Source: a virus
Lineage: Duplodnaviria > Heunggongvirae > Uroviricota > Caudoviricetes
Strand: one strand, 5' to 3'
IMG/VR virus record: IMGVR_UViG_2519899560_000004
Coordinates: 1-6,437 of that record
DNA: 6,437 bases
This document shows positions 1 to 3,000 of this stretch, piece after piece. Within the stretch, counting starts at the first letter, position 1. Every line of letters starts with the position of its first letter. The position numbers were made by a program.

Positions 1-3000
1 TCATATTCAAAGAGAGCTGCAACCTTAACATATCTGGTCAGATCTCATGCGACTACTTGACGTACGTAGACAACAACATTTATTGATACACAGGATGTTA
101 CGGACATAAAAAAGCCAGCCACTGGGGGAGGCTGGCAAACTCGTAGAGCAAAATGCTGTTACGCAAACTTCGTTACAGGGTCATCCTGCAATACAAAAAA
201 TACACAATATTTAGAAAACTAATAGTGCCATGTGCGATTTTTAAGATTTTGTTATTAATTGTGGTCGCACCTTCCTTTCTGTGTACTTTCCGTATAGCTC
301 AGAGGATTCTGGGTACAAAAAAACCCCGCTCATCGACGGGGTCGGCTGCGTGGCAATGCAACCACTCTTATCATGATATGCAGATTTTTACGTACGTAAA
401 ATACTTTTTAGCACCCCATTCAATCGGGAACGGAATCAAGGATTCCGCGACACTTCACACCACCTCTGGTGGGGATTTGCGGGGCCTTTTTTTACCAATT
501 AGCGATGTATTCAGTCGGCGTTGTTTCGTGCTTCTGCATGAACGGCACCAGCTTTGCGGCCATTTATAATCCCCACTTTTTCTGAATCCAAAAAATTTCT
601 CAATTTCTTCATCAGAGGAACCTACTTTTCCACAGACGGGGCAAGTGTGCTTTTTATCATTCTCGGTTTTCTGCACCCCAATTAACTTACGAATTAATGG
701 CTTGATGTCATAGACGTTCCGCAAATCATCATCATGACCGATTTGAGCGTAACTTATCTTCTGCAACATTCCTTTCCCCTCCAGTTCCTGAAGGCGTCCT
801 TGTATAATGGCTCGGGAGGCGCGCATTCTGGTAGCCAAAAGAGATATTGACGGTAATATTTGCGAATCCACATTCTGGTGAAATGAAACCAAATTAGCCA
901 GCAAAACTAATTCTGAATGGGTAATATTTAGTCTTCTCTGATATTTCAACAGCTCTCTAAGAATAACGAACCAGTCAATTCTTAAAATATCATCATTCCA
1001 CAGAGACAGATCATTGTCTTCCGCCTCCAGAAAATCTTCAATGTCCATTTTGCCCCCTGTTCATTGTTGTATCTATGTTATTAACAGGTAGATAACTCTT
1101 ACGTCCCTGTACTATAAAGTAAACAGCATAACGCTCACAAATTGACACACTTCACATAGTGAACGGCAAACGCCTCCTGTCAGAGGCGTTGCACATATCG
1201 GTCCATTTCCAGTCTGACACCAAGTAACATTAACATCCCTTCAACCACACCCTCCGCTTTCTGTAATTTTTTACCGATAGTTCCATCAGAGCATCCATGC
1301 TTACGGGCCAGTGCCATGAACGTCTCCCCCAACACGTAGTAATCCACCAGCAAGTCATGCAGATCGCTGTTGTTCCTGTTAAGGCGAGCCATGCACCCGC
1401 ATATAATCATCGCGTCATCGTCACAACACTGTGGACGTGATTTTACTTTTTCGGGGATCAGCCTCTTAAATCCGGCAGCAATGGGCGACCATGTAACATC
1501 CTCATAGTTATTTGCCGCCCATGCACCCCAGCGCTCAAGAACCTGCCGGATATCACGCATCAGTATCTTTACCCCATCCGCGATGAACCATAAGGACGCC
1601 ATTGACGACGGCATGCTTTTTCGCATCTTTATCATCAATGTATTTTCTGACCGTGTTGCGACTACAGTTCAGTGTTCGGGCTACTTCGGTCTGATTTCCA
1701 TATGCCTCAACGAGCATGTCAGGGATGGTTTTTACGGTGAACGTCATGCGGCCTCACTTCTGCTGTTTCGCAGGTCTTTAAGTTTCTGTTGATACTCTGC
1801 CTTGATCGCCTTGCACTCTTCGACAGTCCAGCGATAGCGGTTATGGTTTGATTCGATTTCCTCTACTGCTTCCTGCCCGATGCGGCTAATCAGTTCGACG
1901 CGATACGGAACGAGATTTCCGCTTTTGTGCTGGTTGCACACCACGCATTGCTTGTGAATATTGCGTTCATCAAATCGGAGTTGAGGTGCCGCAGCAGTTG
2001 TCCGGTAATGTCCGGCATCCCACTGAGCAGACGTGAGCGTTCCGCACGAGATACATGGTAAGTCGCGGTCTCTTTCTCTGATGAAGGCGTTTACGGCTTG
2101 TTGGGCTTGTTTAATCCAGTAACTGCGGGGCTTTAAGGCGAGTTTTCGAATCTTCAGTTTATCTTTCTGTTTCTGCTCCTCTCGTCGTCGTTTCTTCTCT
2201 GCTGTTTTTTCCGCCTTTTCGCGTTCTTTATTTCGTCGTTCGAGCGCTAATTTAGTTCCGTGTTCCGGGCTGCACCACCACTGATTTGAGAATGCCGGGT
2301 GAAACCATTCCTTACAGATTTTGCATTTCCTTCGCGCTGGTTTAGCCATTAAGCAGCCTCCCCTGTTACTTTAAGCATTCCGTTATCTAGCAGCTTTCTG
2401 GTCAGCCACTGTTGACCACGCCCGGTGATTTTTGTGGTGAACGATATCTGTATTCCGTGATTTGTATTGACCGCTGTTTCTTTCACTGTGAAATAGCCGC
2501 GATCCATATATTCCTGCATTGGCACATTGCGCCGGGAACCTGAAGCAATAAGGATTTTGTGTTCGCGCATCCACGCAAACAGTTTGTTTGGACCAATACC
2601 AACAACCTTTGCATAGTTTCCAATCAAAATTCCGCTGGCCTCGCCAACGCGATCGGCAAACTCAACTTTAGGTGCTGCGAGAGCAAGCTGTTTCTCCAGT
2701 TCAGCCTTCTGGTCTTCAAGGTCGGCCGCAAGGCGCAATGCCTCAGAAAAGGTTTGTGGTATTTTCGCGGTTGCCCCTTCGAGTTCTCGCCAGCGGTCAA
2801 CAAGGCGAGCGGTGAATTCCGGCGACAACTGGGCAACGACAATAATGCTGTCGCGCTTACCTTGTTCGCCCTCAAAAACGTAAGCCTCTACGCCACGAAG
2901 TAATCCTAAGTTATTGATTTTTTCGAAAACCACCATTGGGGGATTTCGGATCACACCTCGAACCGCCAGTCGTTCAATGGATTGTTTCACCTTGTCATGA

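What the first reader, a model, noticed from the sequence alone, without database searches (positions are those of the whole stretch)
59..401. Perfect 16-bp palindrome TTTTACGTACGTAAAA with a second ACGTACGT core 330 bp away
A perfect 16-bp palindrome at 386-401 is unlikely by chance in a 6.4-kb window, and the same 8-bp core recurs at 59-66. Both are in non-coding DNA flanking the terminators downstream of the cargo gene. This looks like a paired operator for a dimeric DNA-binding protein, with the adjacent wHTH protein an obvious candidate, or a target for a site-specific nuclease.
Basis: seen in the sequence. Interest (0 to 1): 0.4.

Follow-up and report, generated by a model that had tools for sequence, protein, structure and literature searches.

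The report
Palindrome in Shiga-toxin phage late promoter
The 16-bp palindrome is real and sits on the -35 region of the late promoter (PR') that drives Shiga toxin 1 and phage lysis genes; comparison with relatives indicates it is the docking site of the phage's Q antiterminator, while the second ACGTACGT copy 330 bp away is not a conserved partner.

Summary
The window is the nin-Q-PR' region of a lambdoid Stx1a prophage; its first 1250 bases are identical to E. coli O157:H7 PV15-279. All genes lie on the minus strand.

TTTTACGTACGTAAAA is at 386-401. The second ACGTACGT is at 60-67, not 59-66. Within this window alone the statistics are weak: a palindrome of 16 bp or more appears in 11% of shuffles.

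The palindrome spans -35 to -20 of PR', using the start site mapped in strain Sakai by Sy et al. 2020 and transferred here by homology. In most relatives it also holds the last codons and stop codon of Q.

Across 180 related loci (75 distinct Q proteins), eight different sequences occupy this position. Seven are perfect dyads and all share one centre. Each type goes with one Q recognition-helix sequence, with no exception. A prediction for one recombinant phage held. Best reading: a dyad-symmetric Q-binding element, unlike the direct repeats of phage 21.

The 197-aa protein is not the binder; its gene is an insertion found in 17 of 703 matching genomes. Site 2 belongs to the stx1 upstream module and does not co-vary with the palindrome. 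The paired-operator and nuclease-target ideas are not supported.

The parts
386..401 (-). 16-bp perfect palindrome TTTTACGTACGTAAAA. The core 14-bp dyad TTTACG-TA-CGTAAA is 387-400, which is -35 to -20 of PR'. Proposed Q-binding element.
   Evidence: for the sequence. for position relative to the mapped start site. for conservation of dyad symmetry and pairing with the Q recognition helix.
395..400 (-). -35-like hexamer TTTACG of PR', inside the palindrome, with a 16-bp spacer to the -10.
   Evidence: Promoter scan. The same stretch is annotated 'putative late promoter PR'' in Shigella phage Ss-VASD.
373..378 (-). -10 hexamer TATCAT of PR'. Relatives carry TAnnnT at this place.
405..409 (-). 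A-tract at about -43 to -39, resembling a proximal UP-element subsite. Insertions in relatives always lie upstream of it.
   Evidence: Read from the sequence and the alignments. The UP-element reading is inference.
366..366 (-). Inferred PR' transcription start (the second-last base, A, of TAAGAG), transferred from Sakai prophage Sp5.
   Evidence: Sy et al. 2020 (PMC7547250) report 258 nt from start site to tR' 3' end and an RNase E cut at +173. Both fit A646 of L127, which corresponds to window 366.
108..366 (-). StxS-L transcription unit, from PR' to tR', about 259 nt here. The RNase E motif GUAUU is at 194-190 and the 3' part is the Hfq-binding sRNA StxS.
   Evidence: About 96% identity to Stx1 and Stx2 phages.
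315..343 (-). First terminator-like hairpin GACCCCGTCGATGAGCGGGGTT plus a U-run, at about +24 to +52.
   Evidence: Conserved with compensatory changes in relatives. Same relative position as the annotated terminator of phage 21.
108..135 (-). tR' intrinsic terminator, GCCAGCC..GGCTGGC followed by T6.
   Evidence: Annotated as a rho-independent terminator in phage 7888. 3' end mapped by Term-seq in Sakai.
60..67 (.). Second ACGTACGT ('site 2'), in the context TTGACGTACGTAGA. It is part of the stx1-specific module between tR' and the stx1 promoter and is not a conserved partner of the palindrome.
388..412 (-). Relic of the 3' end of a longer (144-aa) Q gene, ending in a TAA stop at 390-388.
   Evidence: Homology to Stx phages with a contiguous Q stops at 409-412.
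413..1190 (-). Insertion between the Q body and PR'. It carries the 197-aa ORF (455-1048; DnaD_N/HTH_36, phrog_34160).
1180..1560 (-). Q antiterminator, 126 aa, PF06530 (the Q21/Q933W family). Recognition helix [12 protein letters not shown], the type paired with TA-centred dyads.

Best explanation
The palindrome is the upstream core of the late promoter PR' of a Stx1a-converting lambdoid prophage. It is most likely the DNA site where the phage's Q antiterminator docks (the QBE, the upstream part of qut).

Shown by experiment elsewhere and transferred here by about 96% sequence identity: PR' fires constitutively from about position 366 on the minus strand. Its transcript ends at tR' (135-108) and gives the 258-nt StxS RNA. 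Q-modified polymerase reads on into stx1AB and the lysis genes.

Shown here: the palindrome spans -35 to -20 of this promoter. Relatives with different Q proteins carry different sequences centred at exactly the same place. Each sequence type goes with one Q recognition-helix sequence.

Inferred: two Q protomers bind the two half-sites through their sigma-region-4-like helix-turn-helix. They sit where sigma region 4 would otherwise contact a -35 element. They then transfer to RNA polymerase early in transcription and make it terminator-resistant, as shown structurally for phage 21 Q.

The second ACGTACGT at 60-67 is not part of this unit.
For: Position:
- Window 1-412 is about 96% identical to the segment that directly follows Q in hundreds of Stx phages.
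- Sy et al. 2020 mapped the PR' start 258 nt from the tR' 3' end and an RNase E cut at +173. Both fit one base in Sakai Sp5, equivalent to window 366.
- The -35-like TTTACG and -10 TATCAT match and the promoter annotation of Ss-VASD.

Symmetry is selected:
- Loci sharing the downstream anchor TAAGAGTGGTT carry, at one fixed centre 23.0-23.5 bp upstream of it, TTTACGTACGTAAA, TTTACGATCGTAAA, GCGTACGC, GCGGTCCGC, TTCGTTACGAA, TGGAATTCCA or TGTTATAACA.
- An eighth type, TTTACAATCGTAAA, has one mismatched pair.
- Chance of an arm of 4 or more pairs at those centres is 0.012 per sequence.

Pairing with Q:
- In 180 loci with 75 distinct Q proteins, every dyad type goes with one recognition-helix type, with no exception.
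- This holds at fine scale: SDG[THY]xGK..QKA goes with a TA centre and SDTCxGKRLxKA with an AT centre.
- SDGT goes with a CGTACG centre in two classes whose Q proteins are 46-49% identical to the window's Q.
- The N-terminal half of Q is conserved across classes.

Prediction test: the recombinant Stx1a phage Stx1_14040 has a GCGTACGC dyad fused to the Stx1 StxS module. Its Q, 2.1 kb upstream, has SDGTIRKELQSA, the helix type expected for that dyad.

Family context:
- Q here is PF06530 and matches phage 21 Q structures.
- The variable helix aligns weakly with the recognition helix of ECF sigma region 4.
- Published Q21 work places its QBE inside PR' at -27 to -12.

Insertions: they separate Q from PR' in most relatives, always upstream of the A-tract and dyad.
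Against: - No binding data exist for this Q subfamily in the literature I could search.
- Q and PR' are physically linked, so part of the helix-dyad pairing could be co-inheritance. Most loci were collected with a DNA anchor that fixes the region around the start site.
- The solved phage 21 QBE is a direct repeat in the -35/-10 spacer, not an inverted repeat over the -35.
- A sigma-dependent pause element could not be placed with confidence. TACATT at +7 to +12 in most Stx phages is TGCATT here and TACTTC in most other classes. TAAGAG resembles the phage 21 pause element TAAGCT but spans the mapped start.
- The single-sequence structure model of Q was too poor to use.
Confidence: 0.7

Rival explanations
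1. The palindrome is an operator for another dimeric regulator that represses or activates PR' by sitting on its -35. The regulator could be the adjacent 197-aa DnaD_N/HTH_36 protein, another phage protein, or a host factor.
For: Dyad symmetry over a -35 is typical of repressor operators. The 197-aa ORF has an HTH domain and lies next to the site.
Against: The ORF module is covered in only 17 of 703 matching E. coli genomes and 5 of 294 phage records, while the rest keep the PR' segment without it. A host factor would not need eight different site sequences. Site type tracks the Q helix without exception and passed a prediction test. PR' is reported to be constitutively active in lysogens (abstract of PMC7547250).
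Confidence: 0.08
2. The symmetry has no function of its own. The sequence is only a weak -35 hexamer overlapping the end of an ancestral Q reading frame, and the palindrome is a coincidence.
For: A palindrome of 16 bp or more arises in 11% of shuffles of this window. TTTACG is a plausible -35. In relatives the same bases encode the last codons and stop of Q.
Against: Unrelated sequences in other Q classes are also palindromic at the same centre, with chance 0.012 per class. The dyad is kept intact in lineages where it no longer encodes Q because of an insertion, including 76%-identical DLP12-like phages. The TA-to-AT centre change keeps the symmetry.
Confidence: 0.05
3. One reading: the two ACGTACGT sites form a paired operator (for example by looping around the StxS unit), or are targets of a site-specific nuclease such as the HNH/NUMOD4 protein encoded at 4802-5404.
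For: Two copies against 0.04 expected. The flanks also resemble each other in inverted orientation, 17 of 27 positions outside the core, against a background frequency of about 1.6e-4. An HNH endonuclease gene is in the window. In 1.6 Mb of related phage DNA the 8-mer occurs only at these two homologous places.
Against: Site 2 is confined to the stx1 module. It is absent from Stx2 phages and non-Stx relatives that keep the dyad. It stays ACGTACGT where the PR' dyad is ACGATCGT (BP-4795, Ss-VASD) or GCGTACGC (Stx1_14040), so the shared 8-mer is peculiar to this lineage. Given the palindrome, the core recurs by chance in 4% of shuffles and some 8-mer of it in 37%. Nothing links the HNH gene to the site.
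Confidence: 0.04
4. The palindrome acts as a nucleic-acid hairpin, as an RNA stem at the 3' end of the Q message or as a cruciform, rather than as a protein site.
For: It is transcribed as the tail of the early or Q transcript. A-runs flank it.
Against: Predicted RNA stems are weak, -0.2 to -5.5 kcal/mol across classes. Several dyads (GCGGTCCGC, GCGTACGC) cannot form a useful hairpin. No U-run follows on the sense strand.
Confidence: 0.03

Closest known systems
Q-binding element (QBE) of phage 21 PR' (Yin et al. 2019; Shi et al. 2019; annotated in OL657228)
   Same: Same protein family (PF06530, the 'Q21/Q933W family'). The site lies inside the late promoter just after the Q gene and is bound through a sigma-region-4-like HTH. 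Two half-sites lie about 8 bp apart, and a promoter-proximal terminator follows.
   Different: The phage 21 QBE is a direct repeat (ATTGAGCA, AATGAGCA) at -27 to -12, in the spacer of a promoter with a consensus -35. Here the site is an inverted repeat at -34 to -21 lying over a poor -35. This Q subfamily lacks the long loop of the phage 21 Q helix-turn[loop]-helix. Binding here is inferred, not measured.
PR'-tR' late regulatory unit and StxS sRNA of Stx phages (Sakai Sp5 and Sp15, 933W, H-19B; Sy et al. 2020)
   Same: Window 1-412 is about 96% identical to this unit. It has the same promoter hexamers, start site, RNase E motif and tR'.
   Different: The dyad centre is TA, not AT as in most Stx phages, and the arms are one pair longer (16 bp). 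A 0.77-kb insertion separates Q from PR'. Q is 126 aa rather than 144 aa.
Lambda qut / QBE
   Same: It has the same role and the same general place between the -35 and -10, and it is coupled to promoter-proximal events (introduction of PMC6606751).
   Different: The protein family is unrelated (PF03589). Lambda also needs a -35-like element in the transcribed region. The sites share no sequence or symmetry.
Shigella phage 7888 / 75/02 Stx late region (AJ279086, KF766125)
   Same: It has the same arrangement, Q - ORF1 (197 aa) - PR' - tR' - stx1, at 98.4-98.5% identity.
   Different: In 7888 the dyad has one outer mismatch (..CGTAGA).

Membership tests
Q-binding element (qut/QBE) of a lambdoid late promoter | Lies within PR', upstream of the start site, in the late regulatory segment that follows a Q gene | tested here: met
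   The palindrome spans -35 to -20 relative to the start site mapped in Sakai. The segment follows Q directly in most relatives.
Q-binding element (qut/QBE) of a lambdoid late promoter | Site sequence is specific to the cognate Q, so it co-varies with the Q DNA-binding helix | tested here: met
   Eight site types pair with eight recognition-helix types across 75 distinct Q proteins in 180 loci, with no exception. The prediction for Stx1_14040 was confirmed. Genetic linkage is a caveat.
Q-binding element (qut/QBE) of a lambdoid late promoter | Followed by intrinsic terminator(s) that separate PR' from the late genes | tested here: met
   A hairpin with U-run at 343-315 and tR' at 135-108. stx1A starts about 120 bp beyond the window's left edge.
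Q-binding element (qut/QBE) of a lambdoid late promoter | [quoted passage not shown] | tested here: inconclusive
   TACATT at +7 to +12 in most Stx phages is TGCATT here and TACTTC in most other classes. TAAGAG resembles the phage 21 element TAAGCT but spans -4 to +2.
Q-binding element (qut/QBE) of a lambdoid late promoter | Direct binding by Q, and requirement for Q-dependent read-through | not testable with these tools
   Needs EMSA or footprinting and a PR'-tR' reporter.
Phage 21-type QBE architecture | Two directly repeated 8-bp subsites in the -35/-10 spacer | tested here: not met
   Here the site is an inverted repeat centred at -27.5 that overlaps the -35, compared with OL657228 1347-1362.
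   Site 2 occurs only in the stx1 module. The dyad is present without site 2 in Stx2 and non-Stx phages. Site 2 is unchanged where the dyad differs.
   Only 17 of 703 matching genomes and 5 of 294 matching phage records cover the ORF-containing part of the query.
StxS / PR'-tR' unit of Stx phages | Sequence homology with the mapped start site, RNase E motif and tR' in register | tested here: met
   About 96% identity. The unit is 259 nt from 366 to 108, GUAUU is at 194-190, and the terminator is at 135-108.
Intrinsic terminator / structured RNA element (for the palindrome itself) | A stable stem, with a U-run for a terminator | tested here: not met
   Folding energies are -0.2 to -5.5 kcal/mol and no U-run follows on the sense strand. 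Rfam has no match at 1-450.
Restriction or homing-endonuclease target | The site co-occurs with the nuclease gene, or is cleaved by it | not tested
   The core contains hexamers I recognise, from my own knowledge and unchecked here, as BsiWI (CGTACG) and SnaBI (TACGTA) sites. An HNH_3/NUMOD4 gene lies at 4802-5404. No co-distribution analysis was done. The class-specific variation at a fixed promoter position argues against this reading.

The most novel reading that the evidence does not exclude
Q933W-type antiterminators load from a dyad-symmetric site as a head-to-head pair, a different geometry from the direct-repeat loading solved for phage 21 Q. The subfamily has split into at least eight specificity classes with a readable helix-to-DNA code: helix positions 3-4 match the dyad centre and later positions match the outer bases. 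If so, dyad type predicts which resident prophage Q proteins can switch on a given Shiga toxin late promoter. This Stx1 phage shares its TA-centred dyad with DLP12-like cryptic prophages, whereas most Stx phages carry the AT-centred type.
Probability: 0.35. Interest if true: 0.7.

Novelty: new variant of a known kind. Interest (0 to 1): 0.5.

Why it matters
PR' and Q are the switch for Shiga toxin production, and Q allele type is used as a marker of high- and low-toxin strains. I found no paper that defines the Q-binding site of the Q933W-type proteins.

If the dyad is that site, three things follow:
- It becomes a concrete target for testing how Q loads in the medically relevant subfamily.
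- Differences in loading geometry from phage 21 Q become testable.
- Cross-activation, or insulation, between co-resident prophages could be predicted from sequence alone.

The analysis also shows that Q and PR' stay functionally matched even though foreign genes are repeatedly inserted between them.

Tried and rejected
1. A genome-contig scan with TGNTAAGAGTGGTTNC. Nothing from it was used.
2. AlphaFold2 of Q without an alignment. Mean pLDDT was 54.5, too poor for a fold search.
3. Rfam found nothing at 1-450, so StxS did not reach threshold for any Rfam family.
4. Taking TAAGAG as the promoter -10 or as a pause element, by analogy with TAAGCT of phage 21. I rejected it as the -10 because the 258-nt length and the +173 cut both place the start inside it. 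Its role remains open.
5. A terminator or hairpin reading of the palindrome, rejected on folding energies.
6. The 197-aa protein as binder, rejected on distribution.
7. The search for related loci with a Q alignment returned only close relatives (78-98% identity). It served for the fine-scale TA/AT test, not for an unbiased survey of distant classes.
8. Literature searches for a defined Q933W QBE or qut site found none. Sy et al. mention only a 'predicted qut' in a supplementary figure that I could not read.
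Full report
**What the window is.** All genes are on the minus strand. In order they are NinB, an HNH/NUMOD4 endonuclease, a Dam-type methylase, a C4/isrK antisense-RNA locus, two antirepressor-type genes, NinG, NinH and Q. Downstream of Q lie a 197-aa ORF and then positions 412-1. Positions 1-1250 are identical to E. coli O157:H7 PV15-279. There the next genes leftward are stxA1a and stxB1a and the lysis cassette. The same arrangement, at 98.4-98.5% identity, is in Shigella phages 7888 and 75/02 Stx. The finding therefore lies in the late regulatory region of a Stx1a-converting lambdoid prophage.

**The observation.**
- TTTTACGTACGTAAAA is a perfect palindrome at 386-401.
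- ACGTACGT occurs at 390-397 and at 60-67.
- Two copies exceed the shuffle expectation of 0.04.
Of the dinucleotide shuffles of the window, 11% contain a perfect palindrome of 16 bp or more.
- With the palindrome given, some 8-mer of it recurs in 37% of shuffles and the core in 4%.
- Whether the palindrome is functional therefore rests on comparison with relatives.

**Where the palindrome sits.**
- Window 1-412 (or 99-412) is about 96% identical to a segment present in 703 of 5426 complete E. coli genomes and 294 phage records. Nearly all of the phage records are Stx phages, and there the segment directly follows the Q gene.
- Sy et al. 2020 (PMC7547250) mapped the PR' start site and the tR' 3' end in both Sakai Stx phages. 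They are 258 nt apart. They also report an RNase E cut in GU|AUU at +173 that releases the Hfq-binding sRNA StxS.
- In Sakai Sp5 both numbers fit one start, the second-last base (A) of TAAGAG, which corresponds to window 366 on the minus strand.
- This gives a -10 TATCAT at 378-373 and a -35-like TTTACG at 400-395. The promoter scan found the same pair, and Ss-VASD annotates it as the putative PR'.
- The palindrome thus spans -35 to -20.
- The StxS unit runs from 366 to 108. tR' is at 135-108 and is annotated as a terminator in phage 7888.
- A second, promoter-proximal terminator-like hairpin lies at 343-315.

**History of this copy.**
- The window's Q (126 aa) is 93% identical to the 144-aa Q of BP-4795 over residues 1-125. 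Both are PF06530, the 'Q21/Q933W family'.
- Homology breaks after ..EMDRYV and resumes at 412-409.
- In BP-4795 the last codons and stop of Q lie inside the palindrome.
- In the window, therefore, about 0.77 kb carrying the 197-aa ORF (DnaD_N/HTH_36, phrog_34160) is inserted between the Q body and PR'.
- Only 17 of the 703 matching genomes cover most of the query including this part.
- That excludes the 197-aa protein as the cognate binder of a site kept by several hundred genomes without it.

**Symmetry is conserved while the sequence changes.**
- BP-4795 and Ss-VASD carry TTTACGATCGTAAA. The centre is AT rather than TA, and the sequence is still a palindrome.
- DLP12-like phages are 76% identical here and have a porin gene inserted between Q and this segment. 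They keep TTTACGTACGTAAA exactly.
- A scan of viral contigs anchored on the start-site region TAAGAGTGGTTNCNTNGNCAC gave 120 loci.
- At the same position these loci carry unrelated sequences: GCGTACGC, GCGGTCCGC, TTCGTTACGAA, TGGAATTCCA and TGTTATAACA. One further type, TTTACAATCGTAAA, has one mismatched pair.
- In seven of the eight classes the longest palindrome in the 45 nt upstream of the anchor is centred 23.0 or 23.5 bp from it.
- The chance of an arm of 4 or more pairs at those two centres is 0.012 per sequence.
- Predicted RNA stems are weak, at -0.2 to -5.5 kcal/mol.
- This points to a symmetric protein site rather than a hairpin.

**The binder is most likely Q.**
- In 180 loci with 75 distinct Q proteins, each dyad type goes with one sequence of the second HTH helix of Q, without exception.

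| Q recognition helix | Dyad |
|---|---|
| SDG[THY]xGK[KR]LQKA | TTTACG-TA-CGTAAA |
| SDTCxGKRL[HQ]KA | TTTACG-AT-CGTAAA |
| SDCWVGRLLQKA | TTTACAATCGTAAA |
| SDGTIRKELQTA | GCGTACGC |
| DEKLIRIEIQMA | GCGGTCCGC |
| SHTQVLKRLQAA | TGGAATTCCA |
| SLNQVVIRLQKA | TGTTATAACA |
| SEGKIRLKLMLA | TTCGTTACGAA |

- The N-terminal half of Q is conserved across all classes.
- There is internal logic. SDGT goes with a CGTACG centre in two classes whose Q proteins are 46-49% identical to the window's Q. SDTC goes with CGATCG. Changes later in the helix go with changes in the outer bases.
- A profile of these Q proteins matches phage 21 Q structures over residues 8-87 (E = 9e-11).
- More weakly (E = 0.11), the profile matches ECF sigma region 4 and aligns the variable helix with the sigma -35-recognition helix. 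That fits the published description of phage 21 Q as sigma-region-4-like.
- As a test I predicted the Q type of Stx1a phage Stx1_14040. Its PR' has a GCGTACGC dyad fused at the -10 to the Stx1 StxS module. Its Q lies 2.1 kb upstream behind three opposite-strand ORFs and has SDGTIRKELQSA, the expected helix type.
- The main caveat is linkage. Q and PR' are neighbours, and most loci were found with a DNA anchor.

**Comparison with phage 21.**
- In the annotated phage 21 genome the promoter has a consensus -35.
- Its QBE is two direct 8-bp repeats at -27 to -12. Its pause element TAAGCTG is at +2 to +8, and a terminator ends near +50.
- Here the site is an inverted repeat at -34 to -21 over a poor -35.
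- This Q subfamily lacks the long loop of the phage 21 Q HTH.
- I could not place the pause element with confidence.
- The site is therefore the same kind of element in the same protein family but with a different architecture. It fails the phage 21-type architecture test.

**The second site.**
- TTGACGTACGTAGA at 57-70 lies in the stx1-specific module that starts just after tR', at about 98/99.
- It is present in every Stx1 phage examined, whatever the PR' dyad: ACGTACGT, ACGATCGT or GCGTACGC.
- It is absent from Stx2 and non-Stx relatives that keep the dyad.
- In 1.6 Mb of related phage DNA, ACGTACGT occurs 97 times. Of these, 91 are at the PR' dyad, 6 at site 2 and none elsewhere, against 11 expected from composition.
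- The pairing is therefore peculiar to this lineage.
- One loose end remains. The flanks of site 2 resemble PR' in inverted orientation at 17 of 27 positions outside the core, against a background frequency of 1.6e-4 before correction for choosing the frame. Site 2 also matches 12 of the 14 dyad positions, so weak Q binding there is not excluded.

**Verdict.** The palindrome is a real, conserved functional element of a well-known promoter, and it is most likely its Q-binding element (confidence 0.7). The paired-operator, 197-aa-protein and nuclease readings are not supported. I found no paper that defines the Q933W-type QBE. A dyad-symmetric, class-specific QBE would be a new variant of a known kind.

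Noticed in passing
window 315-343 (- strand): A strong terminator-like hairpin with a U7 run lies at about +24 to +52 of PR'. This is the same relative place as the annotated late terminator of phage 21. Sy et al. place tR' at +258, so Stx phages appear to carry two tandem terminators. In non-Stx relatives this first hairpin is the only one before the holin gene.
   Followed up: partly
window 350-365 (- strand): The first 17 nt of the PR' transcript can form a small stem-loop (GUGGU-N6-GCCAC). The anchor pattern used to collect the relatives fixes most of this stem, so its presence in all Q classes is partly forced by the search. Its role (RNA stability, pausing or Q loading) is unknown.
   Followed up: partly
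window 359 (- strand, +8 of PR'): This lineage (the window, PV15-279, phage 7888) has G where other Stx phages have A. That turns the best -10-like hexamer of the early transcribed region, TACATT, into TGCATT. If that hexamer is the sigma-dependent pause element, pausing and Q loading could be altered here.
   Followed up: no
window 413-1190; loci L005-L126: The junction between the Q body and the PR' A-tract is an insertion hotspot. Most non-Stx relatives carry 0.6-2.5 kb of foreign DNA there, such as an OmpD/NmpC-type porin on the opposite strand. Here it is the 197-aa DnaD_N/HTH_36 ORF with a C-terminal Cys-rich motif. Inserts always lie upstream of the A-tract and dyad.
   Followed up: partly
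window 54-88 versus 369-403: A 35-nt imperfect inverted repeat (25 of 35 positions) links the site 2 region to the PR' core. Outside the shared 8-mer, 17 of 27 positions match. This may be chance, a degenerate inverted copy of the promoter, or a weak second Q site about 50 bp upstream of what I take, from memory of the published stx1 promoter, to be its -35.
   Followed up: partly
window 369-378: A 10-bp palindrome TATCATGATA overlaps the PR' -10 hexamer. It is not conserved in other Q classes.
   Followed up: no
window 3877-4075 (- strand): Rfam finds a C4 antisense RNA (75 bits), its a1/b1 target (51 bits) and isrK (77 bits) just upstream of the ORF6N/P22_AR_C antirepressor gene at 3146-3823. 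This looks like a P1/P7-type antisense control of an antirepressor inside the nin region.
   Followed up: no
window 4802-5404 (- strand): An HNH_3/NUMOD4 homing-endonuclease-like ORF lies between the Dam methylase and NinB. The PV15-279 prophage, which is identical to window 1-1250, has no gene annotated between its methylase and NinB. The window as a whole may therefore come from a different, mosaic relative.
   Followed up: no
L002, L004, L127 (most Stx phages), equivalent of window 392-395: The common AT-centred dyad TTTACGATCGTAAA contains a GATC Dam site at about -29 to -26 of PR'. The TA-centred dyad of this window does not. These phages encode their own Dam-type methylase.
   Followed up: no
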